The notes beneath the pieces are model-generated. The model was not told the origin of the DNA. It made no database searches and saw only the letters and a list, made by a program, of their open reading frames with translations. The translations under genes were made by a program, and so were the position numbers. Below are positions 16,721 to 59,521 of a stretch of 64,000 nt of DNA, piece by piece (within the stretch, counting starts at the first letter, position 1; every line of letters begins with the position of its first letter). This DNA comes from an uncultured Gemmatimonadales bacterium (GTDB lineage: Bacteria > Gemmatimonadota > Gemmatimonadetes > Gemmatimonadales > GWC2-71-9). Where the stretch lies: contig CAWCVB010000001.1 of assembly GCA_963798915.1 (NCBI GenBank), positions 96,001-160,000 on the forward strand, written 5' to 3'.

Positions 16721-18061
16721 ATGCCCACCAAGCCCCTCTCCCGTCGCACCTTCGTCGGCACCTCGGCCGCCGCGGCCAGTGCCTTCACCATCGTGCCGCG
16801 CCATGTGCTGGGTGGCCCCGGATTCATCGCGCCGAGCGACAAGCTCAATGTGGCGTGCATCGGGGTGGGCGGCATGGGCCGGAACGACGTCGACGGGATG
16901 AGCGGCGAGAATATCTACGCGCTGTGCGATGTGGACTGGAAGGCCGCCGAGGACGCCTTCCGCAGCTTTCCCAAGGCCAAGCGGTTCAAGGACTATCGCG
17001 AGCTGTTCGACAAGGAAGCGCAGAACATAGACCTCGTCACCGTCTCGACGCCCGACCACAGCCATGCGCCGGCCGCCATGCTCGCGCTCAAGCACGACAA
17101 GCCGACCTACACGCAGAAGCCGCTGGCACGGACACTCCACGAAGTGCGTGCACTGGGCGACGAAGCGCGAAAGCGGAAGCTGCACACCCAGATGGGCAAC
17201 CAGGGTCACGCCGGTGACGGCATGCGGGTGCTGCGCGAGATGGTCGAAGCCGGACTGATCGGCACCGTGCGCGAGGTGCACTACTGGACCAACCGCCCCA
17301 TCTGGCCCCAGGGACTGGACCGCCCCACCGAGCTGCACGCGCCACCCTCGACCCTCGACTGGAATCTCTGGCTCGGTCCCCGTCCCGATCGGCCCTACAA
17401 CCCGGCCTACATGCCGTTCAAGTGGCGCGGGTGGTGGGACTTCGGCACCGGCGCGCTGGGCGACATGGCCTGTCACGGCATGGACGCGGCCTTCTGGATT
17501 CTGGACCTCGGCTTCCCCGATCGCATCATCCCGGAATCCACCGAGCTCTACACCGAGTCGGCACCCAAGTCGGAGCGCATCGAATATCAGTTCGGCGCCA
17601 AGGGGGGACGCGGCCCCATCAAGGTGGTCTGGCGCGACGGCGACCTGCGCCCGCCCCGTCCGGTGGGCTACGCCGACGACGCGGACTGGCCCTTTGCCGA
17701 TATCGGTGGGCAGCTCTGGATCGGCGACAAGGGTGGGATCCTGGCCGGCATCTACGCTGAAAAGCCCCGGCTGCTCGACGAGAAACGGCAGAAGGAGCTC
17801 GAAGCCAATCCGCTGCCGCAGAAGTATCCCCGGTCCAAGGGCGTGTACGCCGAGATCATTGATGCGGCCAAGGGTGGCCCGCCGGCGCTCTCCACCTTTG
17901 ACGGCCACGCCGGCGCACTGACCCAGATGGTATTGCTCGGCTGCCTCGCGGTGCGGGCGGGCAAGACGCTGGAACTGAACAGCAAGACCGGCATGATTAC
18001 CAACGTGACGCTGCCGGAAGAGTGGGTGAAGCCGGGGTTCAGGGACGGGTGGATGGTGTAG
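16721..18061 (+). CDS. Tat-exported Gfo/Idh/MocA family oxidoreductase
   Basis: SRRTFV Tat signal. Motifs IGVGGMG, STPDHSHA, QKPL, GALGDMACH. Confidence 0.93.
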   Translation: MPTKPLSRRTFVGTSAAAASAFTIVPRHVLGGPGFIAPSDKLNVACIGVGGMGRNDVDGMSGENIYALCDVDWKAAEDAFRSFPKAKRFKDYRELFDKEAQNIDLVTVSTPDHSHAPAAMLALKHDKPTYTQKPLARTLHEVRALGDEARKRKLHTQMGNQGHAGDGMRVLREMVEAGLIGTVREVHYWTNRPIWPQGLDRPTELHAPPSTLDWNLWLGPRPDRPYNPAYMPFKWRGWWDFGTGALGDMACHGMDAAFWILDLGFPDRIIPESTELYTESAPKSERIEYQFGAKGGRGPIKVVWRDGDLRPPRPVGYADDADWPFADIGGQLWIGDKGGILAGIYAEKPRLLDEKRQKELEANPLPQKYPRSKGVYAEIIDAAKGGPPALSTFDGHAGALTQMVLLGCLAVRAGKTLELNSKTGMITNVTLPEEWVKPGFRDGWMV

Positions 18062-18067
18062 GAGAGA

Positions 18068-18150
18068 GGTCGTCGGTCGTCAGTCAGTCAGGTCGACGGT
18101 CGTCGGTCGTCGGTCGTCGGTCGTCGGTCGTCGGTCGTCGGTCGTCGGTC
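18068..18150. repeat. Heptamer tandem repeat (GGTCGTC)n, left bracket of the GIY-YIG cassette
   Basis: About 7 perfect GGTCGTC copies at 18098-18150, plus degenerate copies. Confidence 0.9.
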
Positions 18151-18159
18151 TGCGAGATC

Positions 18160-18992
18160 TGTCATCCTGAGCGAAGCGAAGGATCTACCCGCCCTGATCC
18201 GGAAGCAGCCAGGCCGATCCTTCGGCCGCTCCGCGGCCTCTGGATGACAGCAGGTGACGTCCACGGGCCGACGCCGCGCCGATGTCATCCTGAGCGAAGC
18301 GAAGGATCTACGCGCCCCGATCCGGAAGCAGCCAGGCCGATCCTTCGGCCGCTCCGCGGCCTCTGGATGACAGCAGGTGACGTCCACGGGCCGACGCCGC
18401 GCCGATGTCATCCTGAGCGAAGCGAAGGATCTACGCGCCCCGATCCGGAGGCAGCCAGGCCGATCCTTCGGCCGCTCCGCGGCCTCTGGATGACAGCAGG
18501 TGACGTCCACGGGCCGACGCCGCGCCGATGTCATCCTGAGCGAAGCGAAGGATCTACCCGCCCTGATCCGGAAGCAGCCAGGCCGATCCTTCGGCCGCTC
18601 CGCGGCCTCTGGATGACAGCAGGTGACGTCCACGGGCCGACGCCGCGCCGATGTCATCCTGAGCGAAGCGAAGGATCTACCCGCCCCGATCCGGAAGCAG
18701 CCAGGCAGATCCTTCGGCCGCTCCGCGGCCTCTGGATGACAGCAGGTGACGTCCACGGGCCGACGCCGCGCCGATGTCATCCTGAGCGAAGCGAAGGATC
18801 TACCCGCCCCGATCCGGAAGCAGCCAGGCCGATCCTTCGGCCGCTCCGCGGCCTCTGGATGACAGCAGGTGACGTCCACGGGCCGACGCCGCGCCGATGT
18901 CATCCTGAGCGAAGCGAAGGATCTACCCGCCCCGATCCGGAAGCAGCCAGGCCGATCCTTCGGCCGCTCCGCGGCCTCTGGATGACAGCAGG
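18160..18992. repeat. Tandem array of 7 x 123-bp units (90-bp REP-like palindrome TGTCATCC...GGATGACA + 33-bp linker)
   Basis: Units start at 18160, 18283, 18406, 18529, 18652, 18775 and 18898. Arms are tgtcatcctgagcgaagcgaaggatc and gatccttcggccgctccgcggcctctggatgaca. Only a few SNPs, in the loop. Confidence 0.97.
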
Positions 18993-19068
18993 CGCTCCGC
19001 CGTCGCTGCGCTCGAATGCCACCATGGCCCTTTGACACCGGTGGGACGCCCGCCGGCCATGCTTCGGC

Positions 19069-19371
19069 ATGGCGAAGACCTATTACGTCTATCTCCTGGC
19101 CAGCCACTCACGTGTCATCTATATCGGCGTGACAAGTGACCTGCGGCGACGCATCTGGGAGCACCGGCATGGCATGCGGAGCGGCTTCGCGTCCCGTTAC
19201 CGAGCAACCCATCTGGTCTACTTCGAAGCGACCAATGATGCTCGGAGCGCGATCAGGCGTGAGAAGGAGATCAAGGGTTGGTCGCGCCGCCGCAAGATCT
19301 CGCTGATCGAGACGGCGAATGCCGGCTGGCTCGACCTCGCCGCCGACTGGTTTGGACCTGAGGGAGGTTGA
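19069..19371 (+). CDS. Stand-alone small GIY-YIG nuclease (UPF0213/YhbQ-like)
   Basis: YYVYLL...IYIGVTSDLRRRIWEH...LVYFE...AIRREKEIKGWSRRRK...W.DL, 100 aa. Confidence 0.93.
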   Translation: MAKTYYVYLLASHSRVIYIGVTSDLRRRIWEHRHGMRSGFASRYRATHLVYFEATNDARSAIRREKEIKGWSRRRKISLIETANAGWLDLAADWFGPEGG

Positions 19372-19382
19372 TCCCCGGGAAA

Positions 19383-19498
19383 TATCATTCCGAGTGCAGT
19401 AGGGAATCTTACAGGCCAGGTTCGGACATCGGGCGAGCAGATCCTTCGCTACGCTCAGGATGACACGCTTCGACGACCGACGACCGACGACCGACGAC
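19383..19498. repeat. Solo REP-like palindrome followed by (CGACGAC)n right bracket
   Basis: tatcattccgagtgcagtagggaatct...agatccttcgctacgctcaggatgaca (19383-19465), then cgacgaccgacgaccgacgaccgacgac. Confidence 0.88.
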
Positions 19499-21337
19499 TC
19501 ACCTGTCCGCCCGTCCGCCCGTCCGTCTGTCCGTCTCCCACACCTCCACCCCGCCCCCGCTCCCCCCTAAGAGGAGTTCCGGCGTCCCGTCGCCGTCCAT
19601 GTCGGCCACCGCGGGAATGGCGTTGAACGAACCTTGCAGCACAAACGACTGGTCGAGCCGGAAATCCGGCGCGGTGCGGGTGCCGCCATTGCGATAAAGC
19701 TTCACGTCTCCATTCTCGTTGGCAACCAGCAGGTCCAGGTCACCATCGCCATCGATATCCAGCAGCGCCGGCGCGCTGCGCCGCCCACCCGATACACCGG
19801 CATACTCATCCGACACCAGCGCAAATCTGGGATGCTGCCGAGTGCCGTCGTTCCGGTAGAAGTTGATGCTGCCGGACCCCTCGCCCACGAAGAGATCGAG
19901 GTCGCCGTCGCCATCGACATCCGCCAGCGCCGGCGTGGCGTTGCTGCCGCGAGTGAGCGTGACCACGGCGCTGTCCGCCAGCTCGAAGCGCGACGCGCCA
20001 GCGGCTCCCGTGTTCCGGTACCAGGCCAGAACGTTACGCCAGGTGCCCAGCATCATGTCGGGCCGCCCGTCGCCATCGAGGTCACCCAGCGCCGGCGCGT
20101 AGTTGAAGGTGCCACGGATGGCGAGCGGACCGGCATCGTACCAGTCGGGATGGGTGGCGCTGCCCCGGTTCTCGAAATATTCCAGCGCGCCGGTCCGCGG
20201 ATCATGCTGCGAGAGGCGATTCCCCAGAATCAGGTCGAGGTCGCCGTCCCCATCCACGTCCGCCACTGCCGGCGCGCTCTCCGCACCGATGTCCAGCGAC
20301 GAGAGATAGGTGGTGCTCCGCAGCGCGAAGGCCATGGGCGCCGTCTGCTCGAGATAATACAAGTTGCCGATTGACGTGGTATTGGCGTTGAAGGCGCCGC
20401 CCAGGACGCCCATCAGCACATCCAGATCGCCATCGCCATCGAGATCGCCCACCACCGGCGCGTTGTAGCCGCTGGTGCGGAGCGGTGCGCCCGGCGGGAA
20501 TGACACCGAGTCCTGTCCGATGAGGGGCGACGGGCAGGTGCCGGTGTTCTTGAGCCAGAGCAGCCCCGGCTCGAAGTAGTCGCCCCAGAGGATGTCAGGA
20601 TCGCCATCCCGATCAATGTCGGTGACGATCATGGTGTTGGCGCCATGCATCGAGGGCGCCGGCCCCACGTTGCCGATGATCTGGATGTGCTGGAAGGTGT
20701 CGCTCACGAAGTGAAAGACCGGAATGCCACGCTCGTTGAGCGACGCTGCCCGGTAGTGGGTGACCATCCCGCTGGTCCGACCCATCAGCAGGTCGAGCTT
20801 GCCGTCGCAGTCGATGTCCACCAGCTGGGGAATGTTCTGCCGATCGTTGAAGATGGCTCCGCCCTGGTCGTCCCGCAGAGTGTCAGCGGCAAGGACGTAC
20901 CGCGCCGCCTTGGCCGTCCCGTCGTTCCGGTAGTAGCGGATGTAGCTGAACGGCGTCTCCGCCACCAGGTCGGCGTCGCCATCGCCATCCACATCCACGA
21001 ACCGGCTCCACTCCCCGATGTCGAGATCCTGGTAGCGGTCACTGCGCCAGGCGAACGCCGGCGTCCTGGCGCTGCCAGTGTTCTCGAAGAACATCTGGCG
21101 ACCGGTGTATTCCTGGAGGAAGAGATCCAGGTCGCCATCGTCATCGATGTCCACCAGCTGGGGCCGGGGATTATTGAGACCGCCGAGAAAGGGGAACTGG
21201 TATGGATGGCCGGCGGTGTCATGAACGGGAAAGGCGTCCACCACCCGCGTGAAGACCGCGTCCCGGCGACTTGGCATCGCGGCGGCAAGGAGAATCCCTG
21301 CCGCCGCGGTGAGGAAGAGTGGAAAACGCGACGTCAC
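19499..21337 (-). CDS. Secreted FG-GAP/VCBS repeat protein
   Basis: Signal peptide. Many P.(L/V).D.DGDGD.DL..G repeats, often followed by Y.N.G motifs. Confidence 0.9.
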   Translation of the reverse strand: MTSRFPLFLTAAAGILLAAAMPSRRDAVFTRVVDAFPVHDTAGHPYQFPFLGGLNNPRPQLVDIDDDGDLDLFLQEYTGRQMFFENTGSARTPAFAWRSDRYQDLDIGEWSRFVDVDGDGDADLVAETPFSYIRYYRNDGTAKAARYVLAADTLRDDQGGAIFNDRQNIPQLVDIDCDGKLDLLMGRTSGMVTHYRAASLNERGIPVFHFVSDTFQHIQIIGNVGPAPSMHGANTMIVTDIDRDGDPDILWGDYFEPGLLWLKNTGTCPSPLIGQDSVSFPPGAPLRTSGYNAPVVGDLDGDGDLDVLMGVLGGAFNANTTSIGNLYYLEQTAPMAFALRSTTYLSSLDIGAESAPAVADVDGDGDLDLILGNRLSQHDPRTGALEYFENRGSATHPDWYDAGPLAIRGTFNYAPALGDLDGDGRPDMMLGTWRNVLAWYRNTGAAGASRFELADSAVVTLTRGSNATPALADVDGDGDLDLFVGEGSGSINFYRNDGTRQHPRFALVSDEYAGVSGGRRSAPALLDIDGDGDLDLLVANENGDVKLYRNGGTRTAPDFRLDQSFVLQGSFNAIPAVADMDGDGTPELLLGGSGGGVEVWETDRRTGGRADR

Positions 21338-41095: not shown

Positions 41096-41197
41096 GTAGG
41101 GGCGGGTCTCAGACCCGCCCCCCTTCCGGCCCGCCGCCCAATCCGGACACGACAGCACGGGCGAGCCTCATGGATTCCCGCGTTCGCGGGAATGACG
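41096..41197. repeat. GTAG-type REP (41096-41121) and ATTCCC..GGGAATGAC palindrome (41170-41197)
   Basis: gtaggggcgggtctcagacccgccc and tggattcccgcgttcgcgggaatgacg. The second encodes the last residues of the RND gene. Confidence 0.75.
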
Positions 41198-57266: not shown

Positions 57267-57854
57267 ATGGGTATGCCTGATACAGCTGGACGCGAGACGC
57301 GGGACGCGAGACGCTGGACCCGGGACGCGGTGCTCGCGCTCCCCGACGATGGCCGTCGCTACGAACTCATTGACGGTCAGCTGGTCGTGACGTCGGCGCC
57401 CTCCGGCGGCCACCAGGTGGCCGTCACCACCCTGCTGCTGCGCATCGGGCCTGTCCTGAAGCAGGCAGCCGACACCAGCGCCCGCATCCTGGTGTCCCCG
57501 GCGGACATCAGCCTGGGTGAGGAGGAAATTCTCCAGCCCGACCTGTTCATCTATCTGGCCGAAACCGGGCGACAGCTCACTGAATGGAGCGACATTTCAT
57601 CGCTCCTGGTCGCCATCGAGATCCTGTCGCCTTCGACGGCGCGGTACGACAGAGGACTCAAGCGACTGCGCTACCAGCGCGCGCTCGTGCCGGAATACTG
57701 GATCGTGGATCTGGACGGAAGACTGGTGGAGCGCTGGCGACCGGACGACACGCGGCCGGAGGTGTTGCGCGAGCGATTGCTCTGGGCGTCGGGTGACGGA
57801 GCCGAAGTGGATCTAGACCTGCGGGAATTCTTCAGGGAAGTGGCGGGAACATGA
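57267..57854 (+). CDS. Uma2 (DUF820) family PD-(D/E)XK endonuclease, copy 1
   Basis: Motifs YELIDG.LVV..P...HQ, QPD, EILSPST...D...K...Y, VPEYWIVD. Confidence 0.92.
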   Translation: MGMPDTAGRETRDARRWTRDAVLALPDDGRRYELIDGQLVVTSAPSGGHQVAVTTLLLRIGPVLKQAADTSARILVSPADISLGEEEILQPDLFIYLAETGRQLTEWSDISSLLVAIEILSPSTARYDRGLKRLRYQRALVPEYWIVDLDGRLVERWRPDDTRPEVLRERLLWASGDGAEVDLDLREFFREVAGT

Positions 57855-58101
57855 AGGGCAGACGGACAGGGCGCATCTGACGTAGCACATCATTGCGAGG
57901 AGGCGCCGACGGCGCCGACGAAGCAATGACGAATTGGCAAGCTGTCGCCGCAGGCGACGCCTGCCGAGCCACGGTCATCAGCCGCGGGAAACCCGGCACC
58001 AATCCGCCACCGGCCGCGTTTCCTCGATGACAGCGAGCAGTGCGGCGCTGGCGATCCTGAGGCATGCCCCCTTGCCAACTCCCGCCGCCGAGCCGAGCCT
58101 T
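57855..58101. repeat. 247-bp inter-Uma2 spacer containing a TCATTGC...GCAATGA REP-like palindrome
   Basis: Nearly identical to 58690-58936. Palindrome at ~57890-57930. Confidence 0.9.
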
Positions 58102-58689
58102 ATGGGTATGCCTGATACAGCTGGACGCGAGACGCGGGACGCGAGACGCTGGACCCGGGACGCGGTGCTCGCGCTCCCCGACGATGGCCGTCGCTACGAG
58201 CTTATTGACGGCGAACTGGTGGTGACGCCGGCGCCCGCTTGGCGGCACCAGGGAGCTGTCACCACGTTATGCGCCGTCCTGAAGCAGGCCTTGGATCGCG
58301 CTCCGGGCACCGTTGCGCGATTGCTGGTCTCCCCGGCGGACATCCAACTTGGTGAAGAAGAGATCCTTCAGCCGGATCTGTTCGTCTACACGATCGCGTC
58401 CGGACCGCGGGCGGAGGATTGGGGTGATATTTCGGGGCTCCTGCTCGTGATTGAAGTCCTCTCGCCCTCCACCGCGCGCTACGACCGGGGCCTGAAGCGG
58501 CTGCGATACCAGCGGGCCCGGGTGCCCGAATACTGGATCGTGGATCTCGACGGCCGCGTCGTGGAACGCTGGCGCCCGGATGATGCGCGGCCGGAGGTAC
58601 TGGCTGATCGGCTGCAGTGGTCGTCGGGCGATGGGGCTGAGGTGAACCTGGATCTGGAGGCGTTCTTCAGGGAAGTGGCGGGAACATGA
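58102..58689 (+). CDS. Uma2 family endonuclease, copy 2
   Basis: Same motifs. Start is exactly 835 bp after copy 1. Confidence 0.92.
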   Translation: MGMPDTAGRETRDARRWTRDAVLALPDDGRRYELIDGELVVTPAPAWRHQGAVTTLCAVLKQALDRAPGTVARLLVSPADIQLGEEEILQPDLFVYTIASGPRAEDWGDISGLLLVIEVLSPSTARYDRGLKRLRYQRARVPEYWIVDLDGRVVERWRPDDARPEVLADRLQWSSGDGAEVNLDLEAFFREVAGT

Positions 58690-58936
58690 AGGGCGGGCGG
58701 ACTAGGCGCATCTGACGTAGCACGTCATTGCGAGGAGGCGCCGACGGCGCCGACGAAGCAATGACGAATTGGCAAGCTGTCGCCGCAGGCGACGCCTGCC
58801 GAGCCACGGTCATCAGCCGCGGGAAACCCGGCACCAATCCGCCACCGGCCGCGTTTTCTCGATGACAGCGAGCAGTGCGGCGCTGGCGATCCTGAGGCAT
58901 GCCCCCTTGCCAACTCCCGCTGCCGAGCCGAGCCTT
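58690..58936. repeat. Second inter-Uma2 spacer with a CGTCATTGC...GCAATGACG palindrome (58723-58766)
   Basis: Direct comparison with 57855-58101. Confidence 0.9.
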
Positions 58937-59521
58937 ATGGGTATGCCTGATACAGCTGGACGCGAGACGCGGGACGCGAGACGCTGGACCCGGGACGCGG
59001 TGCTCGCGCTCCCCGACGACGGCCGGCGCCGCGAACTTATTGACGGCGAACTGGTCGTGACGCCGTCGCCGTCCGATTCCCATCAGCGTGCTGTTGGGGA
59101 GCTGTATTTCCTGCTTCGGCTGGCGCTATCGCGAACCCCGGAAACTGCGGCGAGCCTTCTCTTCTCCCCAGCCGATATCAGCCTCGGCGAGGATGAAATC
59201 CTTCAGCCGGACCTCTTCATCTACCGAACCGCCAGCGGACGGATTCGGGAATGGAGCGACATAGCTTCGCTCCTGGTCGCCATCGAGATTCTCTCCCCCT
59301 CCACCGCGCGCTACGATCGCGGCCTCAAGCGGCTGCGCTACCAGCGGGCCCGGGTGCCCGAATACTGGATCGTGGATCTCGACGGCCGCGTCGTGGAACG
59401 CTGGCGCCCGGATGATGCGCGGCCGGAGGTACTGGCTGATCGGCTGCAGTGGTCGTCGGGCGATGGGGCTGAGGTGAACCTGGATCTGGAGGCGTTCTTC
59501 AGGGAAGTGGCGGGAGAGTAG
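58937..59521 (+). CDS. Uma2 family endonuclease, copy 3
   Basis: Same motifs. Start is 835 bp after copy 2. Confidence 0.92.
   Translation: MGMPDTAGRETRDARRWTRDAVLALPDDGRRRELIDGELVVTPSPSDSHQRAVGELYFLLRLALSRTPETAASLLFSPADISLGEDEILQPDLFIYRTASGRIREWSDIASLLVAIEILSPSTARYDRGLKRLRYQRARVPEYWIVDLDGRVVERWRPDDARPEVLADRLQWSSGDGAEVNLDLEAFFREVAGE

What the first reader, a model, noticed from the sequence alone, without database searches (positions are those of the whole stretch)
18068..19498. GIY-YIG nuclease cassette with a 7 x 123-bp palindromic array, bracketed by inverted heptamer tracts
Seen: (GGTCGTC)n, then seven tandem 90-bp TGTCATCC...GGATGACA hairpin elements joined by an invariant 33-bp linker, then an intact 100-aa GIY-YIG gene, one more element of the same family, and (CGACGAC)n. 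The block sits between two unrelated convergent genes, and solo elements of the family occur elsewhere in the window. Known: REP/BIME arrays flank their cognate RAYT (HUH) transposase, but here the flanked gene is a GIY-YIG nuclease and no RAYT is visible. Inference: a REPtron-like unit in which the GIY-YIG enzyme nicks or processes the hairpins and drives their amplification and spread. Alternatively the array is transcribed into repeated structured RNAs that partner the nuclease.
Basis: partly seen in the sequence, partly recalled or inferred. Interest (0 to 1): 0.82.

Follow-up and report, generated by a model that had tools for sequence, protein, structure and literature searches.

The report
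Ssn nuclease beside amplified hairpin repeats
A small DNA-cutting gene of the Ssn family (described in 2025; cuts single-stranded DNA next to its own hairpin repeats) sits beside seven recently copied pairs of such hairpins; this is a real but largely known arrangement, with a hairpin variant that the published search motif misses.

Summary
The 100-aa GIY-YIG protein is an Ssn-family single-strand nuclease (Chenal 2025, PMC11893778): 49% identical to the Neisseria SsnA orthologue, E 6e-23, with its three tested catalytic residues kept. Each 90-bp unit is a head-to-head pair of TGTC-tagged (CGTC-superfamily) REP hairpins. Such hairpins lie within 500 nt of 65 of 80 homologues, 35 times denser than in distal flanks. 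The published SRM pattern finds 1 of 80, so this is a variant with a GA/GA internal loop and a GCGNAGC DNA mini-hairpin cap. The REP/BIME parallel is already proposed in that paper. The array is young and was seen only in this genome. The gene looks like an old resident: G005 has it at the same site, as diverged as the neighbouring gene, while three congeners lack it. The heptamer tracts are a genome-wide feature (465 tracts); they also bracket the empty site and four-helix-bundle genes. Nuclease-driven amplification is inferred, not shown; array length was not checked with reads. The scan found an Ssn unit before on other DNA (e1-4925234).

The parts
16721..18061 (+). Flanking host gene, Gfo/Idh/MocA oxidoreductase (context only)
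   Evidence: orthologues 91-93% identical in 5 congeners
18068..18150 (+). G-rich heptamer tract after the stop codon; member of a genome-wide class; the same tract plus an 8-nt junction precedes 11 of 12 other copies of the 90-bp dimer
18160..18987 (.). BIME-like array: seven 90-bp head-to-head REP dimers starting at 18160, 18283, 18406, 18529, 18652, 18775, 18898, joined by six identical 33-bp linkers
18160..18185 (+). Short half-site of unit 1: TGTC tag, 5-bp stem, GA/GA internal loop, GCGAAGC mini-hairpin cap, closing C; predicted Ssn site on the + strand
   Evidence: function inferred from PMC11893778
18216..18249 (-). Long half-site of unit 1: same tag, stem and GA/GA loop, 6-bp upper stem with a GGA triloop; predicted Ssn site on the - strand
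18250..18282 (.). 33-bp linker; its last 28 nt have no other copy in the genome at up to 6 mismatches; holds the predicted cut sites of both neighbouring half-sites
   Evidence: cut position inferred from PMC11893778
18988..19068 (+). Upstream region of the nuclease gene, alignable with G005; no sigma-70 consensus or terminator found by the scan
19069..19371 (+). Ssn-family single-domain GIY-YIG nuclease gene, 100 aa; Y8, Y18 and E65 align with SsnA Y6, Y17 and E64; only such gene found in the assembly
19383..19465 (.). Downstream head-to-head dimer: decayed left arm, intact right arm (19440-19465, - strand, GTA triloop)
19471..19498 (-). Heptamer tract directly after the stop of the FG-GAP gene, G-rich on that gene's sense strand
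19499..21337 (-). Flanking host gene, FG-GAP repeat protein (context only)
   Evidence: adjacent to the oxidoreductase gene also in G001, G004, G005, G008

Best explanation
This is an Ssn locus: a single-domain GIY-YIG nuclease gene among its cognate TGTC-tagged REP hairpins, with one head-to-head hairpin pair recently amplified seven-fold. Shown here: the protein family, the hairpin anatomy, their association across phyla and the site history. Inferred from the Neisseria enzyme: when the DNA is single-stranded (replication fork, recombination intermediate, incoming DNA), each half-site folds on one strand only; the nuclease binds it and cuts a few nucleotides 5' of the tag. In a head-to-head pair the two cuts fall outside the pair on opposite strands, and in the array both fall in the 33-bp linker. 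Inferred further, at about even odds: host repair of such cuts against other copies spreads and homogenises the elements and seeded this tandem run, which then grew by slippage or unequal exchange. The gene is an old resident that comes and goes over genus-level time, not a recently jumped cassette. The heptamer tracts are a separate, lineage-wide intergenic repeat class that travels with one subfamily of the dimer.
For: Protein: 49% identity over 88 aa, E 6e-23 (database size set to 1e6), to the NTS-flanked 94-aa Neisseria gonorrhoeae orthologue that has Y6/Y17/E64; 46% to the Azospirillum lipoferum 4B homologue, a genome the paper used to define SRMs. A quick tree of 53 rows separates it, with those two, from 7 UPF0213-like proteins at SH-aLRT 100. 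Single-domain model, pLDDT 88, best fold matches GIY-YIG proteins. Elements: 65 of 80 GTDB homologue loci have a half-site within 500 nt, 51 of 80 on both sides; 2.72 vs 0.078 per kb near vs far; 1 of 7 for UPF0213-like controls. With pairing not demanded, 63 distinct anchor matches pair Watson-Crick at 59, 62, 61 and 60 of 63 at the four free stem positions, with several pair types; 40 of 63 have a GNA triloop; the mirror form occurs once. Gene and element co-occur in relatives: 13 both, 4 gene only, 3 element only, 40 neither, of 60. Tandem element arrays lie beside 14 of 101 other homologues. PMC11893778 shows strand-specific ssDNA cleavage by four homologues, none on dsDNA or RNA for SsnA.
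Against: No activity was tested. The elements fail the published SRM pattern (2 mismatches needed), and the tested enzymes lie in a separate subclade (97), so specificity is extrapolated. My half-site pattern was defined after looking at the window and at these loci, so the enrichment is partly circular; the distal-flank, reversed-genome and anchor-only controls reduce but do not remove this. It found only 9 of 21 loci from relatives (the rest mostly carry other variants seen by eye) and none at 15 of 80 GTDB loci. G026 (19 elements, 98% complete) and G011 (10 elements, 93% complete) gave no Ssn gene even with an alignment; G021 has only a fragment. Arrays also occur away from the gene (C5 three copies, C11 three copies). 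The genome also holds canonical NTS-like elements (7 at one mismatch) whose partner is unclear. Kin are not independent in the co-occurrence table. cd10448 membership could not be scored.
Confidence: 0.8

Rival explanations
1. The nuclease recognises the hairpins but has no part in multiplying them. It acts as an ssDNA restriction or recombination modulator, as shown in Neisseria, and the array arose by ordinary slippage or unequal recombination of a hairpin-rich segment.
For: The only in vivo role shown is lower integration of NTS-bearing transforming DNA (PMC11893778). GIY-YIG enzymes hydrolyse DNA and form no covalent strand-transfer intermediate, unlike HUH/RAYT enzymes (established knowledge, recalled). 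Arrays occur far from the gene, and element-rich genomes G026 and G011 lack a detectable gene.
Against: Gene and elements co-occur across genomes, and element subtype follows protein clade by eye. The repeat unit starts exactly at the tag and contains 28 nt found nowhere else, which a simple duplication does not explain. This rival is compatible with the family assignment and differs only on the amplification step.
Confidence: 0.4
2. The block is an autonomous mobile cassette (tract, elements, nuclease gene, element, tract) that inserted recently, with the inverted heptamer tracts as its ends.
For: Three congeners have the same two host genes without the nuclease gene. The gene is patchy (17 of 60 relatives) and multi-copy in some genomes, up to 6 matches. 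The left tract and junction are shared with 11 of 12 other dimers.
Against: The empty site in G004 still has inverted tracts, G008 has tracts around a lone dimer, and G001 has tracts around a four-helix-bundle gene; the tract unit differs in each genome. Only 5 of 80 GTDB homologue loci have a tract within 500 nt and none on both sides. Gene divergence from G005 equals host-gene divergence. One copy in this assembly.
Confidence: 0.12
3. The array is transcribed into repeated structured RNAs that guide or partner the nuclease.
For: The array lies downstream of a + strand gene with no terminator-like site, so read-through is plausible, and the 90-nt unit can fold (DNA parameters).
Against: SsnA did not bind or cut RNA. 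38 of 48 short arms in the genome carry GCGNAGC, a motif known for stability as DNA (Tm 76.5 C for d(GCGAAGC); the RNA form of the related tetraloop melts at 39 C; PMC13037366). The two arms point to opposite strands. No variable spacers. Rfam gives two weak matches, both on the heptamer tract and far below threshold. Most homologues have no array.
Confidence: 0.04
4. The elements are spread by a RAYT or other Y1 transposase encoded elsewhere, and the GIY-YIG gene is a passenger.
For: The assembly has three Y1_Tnp genes; one of two scanned scores best to the RAYT model, below its cut-off.
Against: None has such an element within 5 kb. Di Nocera 2013 found no association of CGTC repeats with transposase genes (PMC3733652). 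The elements cluster at Ssn genes across many phyla.
Confidence: 0.04
5. The seven-fold array is an assembly artefact.
For: Units are 98% alike, the genome is an incomplete assembly (84.8%), and no reads could be examined.
Against: Variants are shared between units (2 with 3; 1 with 4), as a duplication history would give. The contig is 334 kb. Comparable arrays lie beside 14 of 101 other homologues, one with 9.6 copies.
Confidence: 0.05

Closest known systems
Ssn nuclease family with NTS/SRM hairpins (Chenal et al. 2025, PMC11893778)
   Same: Single-domain GIY-YIG of about 100 aa, catalytic Tyr/Tyr/Glu kept, gene flanked on both sides by tagged hairpins that are also dispersed through the genome; passes the paper's similarity cut-off when the N. 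gonorrhoeae orthologue is used as query.
   Different: Hairpins have a GA/GA internal loop and a GNA triloop and fail the published SRM pattern. The protein lies outside the subclade with the Neisseria enzyme. It is a Gemmatimonadota-type host (inferred from nearest homologues) with a regular 7-unit array.
CGTC-tagged REP superfamily (Di Nocera et al. 2013, PMC3733652)
   Same: CGTC/TGTC/CCTC tag, stem starting with an A-T pair, short unpaired tail starting with C, head-to-head dimers, often heterodimers, no dedicated transposase.
   Different: That text gives 8-9-bp stems with 4-5-nt loops and calls grouped elements rare; here a split stem and a tandem run. The consensus figure could not be seen, so overlap with families CGTC-2 to -4 is untested.
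REPtron / BIME with RAYT (TnpA-REP, HUH superfamily)
   Same: Enzyme gene flanked by strand-specific tagged hairpins; dimers plus linker reiterated in tandem.
   Different: The enzyme is GIY-YIG, not Y1/HUH; tag TGTC, not GTAG; no strand-transfer chemistry is expected (recalled).
G-rich intergenic heptamer repeats of Xanthomonas and Nostoc (Rehm et al. 2015, PMC4692102)
   Same: 7-nt units, G-rich strand just after stop codons, inverted pairs.
   Different: Many unit types (7, 8, 9 nt) that turn over between congeners; enriched beside REP elements and four-helix-bundle genes.

Membership tests
Ssn nucleases | Single GIY-YIG domain, under 150 aa | tested here: met
   100 aa, PF01541 only, one compact domain in the model
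Ssn nucleases | BLAST match to SsnA at E < 1e-10 over at least 75% of its length | tested here: met
   E 6e-23, 88 of 94 aa, with the N. gonorrhoeae orthologue as proxy for N. meningitidis SsnA; database size set to 1e6; 6 of 7 UPF0213-like controls failed this cut-off
Ssn nucleases | Catalytic residues Y6, Y17, E64 of SsnA | tested here: met
   Align with Y8, Y18, E65; Y18 invariant, Y8 and E65 at least 90% in 40 homologues
Ssn nucleases | Falls in the Ssn clade of the GIY-YIG tree | tested here: met
   Quick tree, 53 rows, 105 columns, SH-aLRT 100 against 7 UPF0213-like proteins; only one outgroup family and no bootstrap, so a limited test
Ssn nucleases | CDD cd10448 hit | not testable with these tools
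   CDD is not among the libraries; NCBIfam gave no family
Ssn nucleases | Site-specific cleavage of ssDNA next to the cognate hairpin | not testable with these tools
   Needs the purified enzyme
SRM sensu stricto (published degenerate pattern) | Flanking elements match the SRM search sequence with no mismatch | tested here: not met
   0 matches at 0-1 mismatch in 18001-19600; 8 intact short arms match at 2. The paper finds the pattern near only 71% of homologues, so this excludes the repeats from the SRM pattern, not the protein from the family
CGTC-tagged REPs | Unpaired CGTC/TGTC/CCTC tag, hairpin opening with A-T, tail starting with C, head-to-head dimers | tested here: met
   (16 of 35 clusters are simple head-to-head pairs)
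CGTC-tagged REPs | Assignment to one of families CGTC-1 to -4 | not testable with these tools
   The consensus sequences are in a figure that is not held
REPtron (RAYT plus REPs) | Flanked gene is a Y1/HUH tyrosine transposase | tested here: not met
   Gene is GIY-YIG; the three Y1 genes lie on contig C2, at least 5 kb from any element
Repeat-spacer guide-RNA array | Variable spacers between constant repeats | tested here: not met
   All six linkers identical

The most novel reading that the evidence does not exclude
A large, mostly uncultured branch of the Ssn family reads a different hairpin (GA/GA loop, GCGNAGC cap) that the published motif misses, and these enzymes are the long-missing mobilisers of CGTC REPs: cuts beside the tag, repaired by the host, copy the element with its flank and build BIME-like arrays. 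In this lineage the polarised heptamer tracts mark reusable slots in which hairpins, Ssn genes and four-helix-bundle genes replace one another, and may be scars or landing sites of that process.
Probability: 0.2. Interest if true: 0.62.

Novelty: new variant of a known kind. Interest (0 to 1): 0.3.

Why it matters
The pairing itself is published, so a specialist would not be surprised. What this adds is practical. It gives a candidate Ssn enzyme with a differently built target, which widens a family proposed as ssDNA tools. It shows that the published motif undercounts Ssn-associated repeats (1 of 80 against 65 of 80 loci). And it gives a natural series at one site (empty, lone dimer, four-helix gene, nuclease, nuclease plus array) on which the open question of what spreads CGTC REPs can be tested.

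Tried and rejected
Rfam: nothing near threshold. Promoter/terminator scan: none. NCBIfam: no family for the nuclease. PDB by sequence and fold: only UPF0213, Slx1 and UvrC-type GIY-YIG matches, no Ssn structure. A first hairpin detector was too loose (1.1 hits per kb in distal DNA, 6 of 7 controls positive) and was replaced. A first test of tract position used crude longest-ORF calls and was inconclusive (17 of 73 tracts after a stop, 24 scored inside ORFs). The careful 111-row tree did not finish; the tree used is a quick one on 53 rows (rows kept from relatives, every fourth GTDB locus, five plasmid-collection loci; L018 and L057 dropped for stops, L022 not recovered). ViennaRNA gives both strands of a half-site nearly equal energy, so strand specificity rests on sequence asymmetry and literature, not on that model. 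The 337- and 339-aa ORFs through the array are treated as by-products of a 123-nt period (41 codons); not tested further. Literature: SsnA/Ssn/GIY-YIG from 2024 on gave only the Chenal paper as relevant; four helix bundle with GxxExxY, repeats and 23S IVS gave 0 papers with 3 of 4 terms; one search was uninformative; PMC4679880 had no passage on four-helix or nuclease genes. The GA-type motifs were not found as text in the 14 Ssn supplements, but figures there cannot be read and may show them.

Full report
Observation. The six linkers are identical. Four unit positions vary, two of them shared between units. The window is G000:C1:96001-160000 of a 3.3-Mb, 66% G+C assembly in 17 contigs, 84.8% complete. 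The host is probably Gemmatimonadales; this is inferred from the names of the nearest homologues, and earlier scan notes say the same.

The protein. I recalled the Ssn family from memory and then confirmed it by search. Of PMC11893778 I read parts 1-6 of 11 of the main text (abstract to early methods), Supplementary Data 5 whole, the first part and searched rows of Supplementary Data 4, and ran term searches over the 14 supplementary files; figures were not visible. The paper defines Ssn as single-domain GIY-YIG proteins (cd10448) whose genes are flanked by hairpin repeats. Four purified members cut ssDNA near their own repeat; SsnA cuts a few nucleotides upstream of it, on one strand only, and ignores dsDNA and RNA. 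A plasmid-collection search returned the N. gonorrhoeae orthologue and the Azospirillum lipoferum 4B homologue. The first is 94 aa with Y6, Y17 and E64 and has 10 NTS copies in 3.3 kb. The window protein is 49% and 46% identical to them (E 6e-23 and 6e-22), with those residues aligned. A quick tree of 53 rows puts it with them and apart from 7 UPF0213-like proteins (SH-aLRT 100), but outside the subclade holding the Neisseria enzyme (97). The model is one GIY-YIG domain. It is the only small GIY-YIG gene found in the assembly; the other two family matches lie in frames of 537 and 705 aa.

The repeats. Each 90-bp unit is a head-to-head pair of half-sites, each with a TGTC tag, a 5-bp stem opening with A-T, a GA/GA internal loop, an upper stem with a GNA triloop and a closing C. 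This fits the CGTC REP superfamily, for which PMC3733652 (passages and section 6 read) gives TGTC and CCTC variants, head-to-head dimers and no dedicated transposase. The genome holds 77 core half-sites in 35 clusters and 12 more copies of the same 90-bp dimer. The elements miss the published SRM pattern by two mismatches. Among the best 80 of 594 GTDB homologue loci (scan cut at 600 rows), the strict pattern occurs within 500 nt of 1, whereas the GA-type half-site occurs near 65, on both sides of 51, at 209 per 76,951 bp against 21 per 269,931 bp beyond 1 kb. I defined that pattern after seeing these loci. A less circular count with anchors only gave 63 distinct matches in 46 of 101 loci, Watson-Crick paired at 59-62 of 63 per position with several pair types, and GNA loops in 40 of 63. 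In the own genome 38 of 48 short arms and 18 of 27 long arms carry GCGNAGC, which PMC13037366 (passages) describes as an exceptionally stable DNA mini-hairpin. This points to a DNA target rather than an RNA.

Genome-level association. Of 60 relatives, 17 have an Ssn-type match (best E 2.4e-20 or better; 8 weaker ones are UPF0213-like) and 16 have the short-arm pattern: 13 both, 4 gene only, 3 pattern only, 40 neither. The gene-only genomes carry other tagged hairpins at the gene. Against the reading: G026 (19 elements, 98% complete) and G011 (10 elements, 93%) gave no Ssn gene with an alignment search, and G021 only a fragment. Kin are not independent, so the Fisher values overstate.

History of the site. 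Of 15 relatives with a strong oxidoreductase match, three show the same FG-GAP neighbour; G005, found through the nuclease, is a fourth. G004 has only an inverted pair of heptamer tracts; G008 has tracts around one CCTC-tagged dimer; G001 has 9-mer tracts around a four-helix-bundle gene (TIGR02436); G005 has tracts, elements and an orthologous nuclease gene (80% aa) without the array. Nucleotide identity between G000 and G005 is 0.769 for the nuclease gene and 0.767 for the FG-GAP gene, and G000 is the most distant of the five (0.77-0.79 against 0.83-0.87). The simplest reading is an ancestral gene lost at least twice. The tree has low support (80, 62) and no outgroup, so two gains at one site are not excluded. 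The array, at 98% identity, is far younger than the gene. Its unit starts exactly at the tag, and 28 nt of the linker have no other copy in the genome at up to 6 mismatches.

The heptamer tracts. There are 465 short-period tracts in the genome. 23 of 35 element clusters have one within 80 nt, always G-rich on the left (14 of 14) and C-rich on the right (18 of 18); 157 of 1081 intergenic gaps have a tract, against 14 of 21 gaps with an element. All 8 four-helix-bundle genes have one within 250 nt, 6 on both sides, against 353 and 29 of 2273 long ORFs. Only 5 of 80 GTDB nuclease loci have one. So the tracts are a lineage trait, like those in PMC4692102 (passages), and not ends of an Ssn cassette. 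They are linked to the dimer subfamily, though: 11 of 12 other copies share the tract and junction on one side and 11 of 12 share the first five bases of the other flank, so the elements are copied with their flanks.

Mechanism. Most likely (0.8) the protein binds the folded half-site in ssDNA and cuts 5' of the tag, as SsnA does; this is inferred by homology. Whether those cuts spread the elements and seeded the array is open, about even. GIY-YIG chemistry is hydrolytic (recalled), so host repair would have to do the copying; arrays lie beside 14 of 101 other homologues but also away from the gene. The three Y1 transposase genes are at least 5 kb from any element.

Verdict. Real, and largely explained by a 2025 family whose authors already propose the REP/BIME analogy. 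The scan reported an Ssn unit on other DNA (e1-4925234), seen after I had reached this reading. The additions are a hairpin variant invisible to the published motif, a young BIME-like array, and a site that holds different cargo in five congeners. New variant of a known kind; interest 0.3.

Noticed in passing
L133:1410-1955 (G001:C102), orthologous to window 18062-19498: The same intergenic site holds a four-helix-bundle gene (TIGR02436) between inverted 9-mer tracts instead of the nuclease and hairpins.
   Followed up: partly
G000, 8 loci on C3, C5, C7, C10: All 8 four-helix-bundle genes have polarised short-repeat tracts within 250 nt, 6 on both sides, against 29 of 2273 long ORFs with both.
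   Followed up: partly
window 41172-41197 and about 20 other sites in G000: A second, canonical NTS-like CGTC element type, mostly followed by the same short tail, coexists with the GA type although only one Ssn gene was found.
   Followed up: partly
G000:C11:64360-64900 and C5:33253-33489: Other tandem runs of these elements away from any nuclease gene: three copies of tract plus dimer at about 225-bp spacing, and three half-sites at 77-bp spacing.
   Followed up: partly
window 18250-18254: The five bases right of the array's dimer are the reverse complement of the five bases at that place in 11 of 12 other copies, next to the predicted cut site; possibly a micro-inversion.
   Followed up: no
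G000 contigs C3, C4, C6, C14-C17: No core half-sites on about 1.15 Mb of these contigs, while C1, C2 and C5 hold most; tracts are also sparse on C6. Uneven spread along the chromosome or mixed binning.
   Followed up: no
G000:C2:384349-384693 (L138): An IS200/IS605-type Y1 transposase flanked by a different family of repeated hairpins.
   Followed up: no
L096, L018, L081, L093: Ssn homologues with their own tandem element arrays, up to 9.6 copies of 68 bp; the L018 gene has an internal stop.
   Followed up: no
L115 (Planktothrix plasmid NZ_LR882964.1): An Ssn homologue sits between a type IIL restriction-modification gene and a DISARM drmA gene.
   Followed up: no
window 57288-59000: Three identical 43-nt heptamer tracts spaced 835 bp apart, suggesting a triplicated segment.
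   Followed up: no
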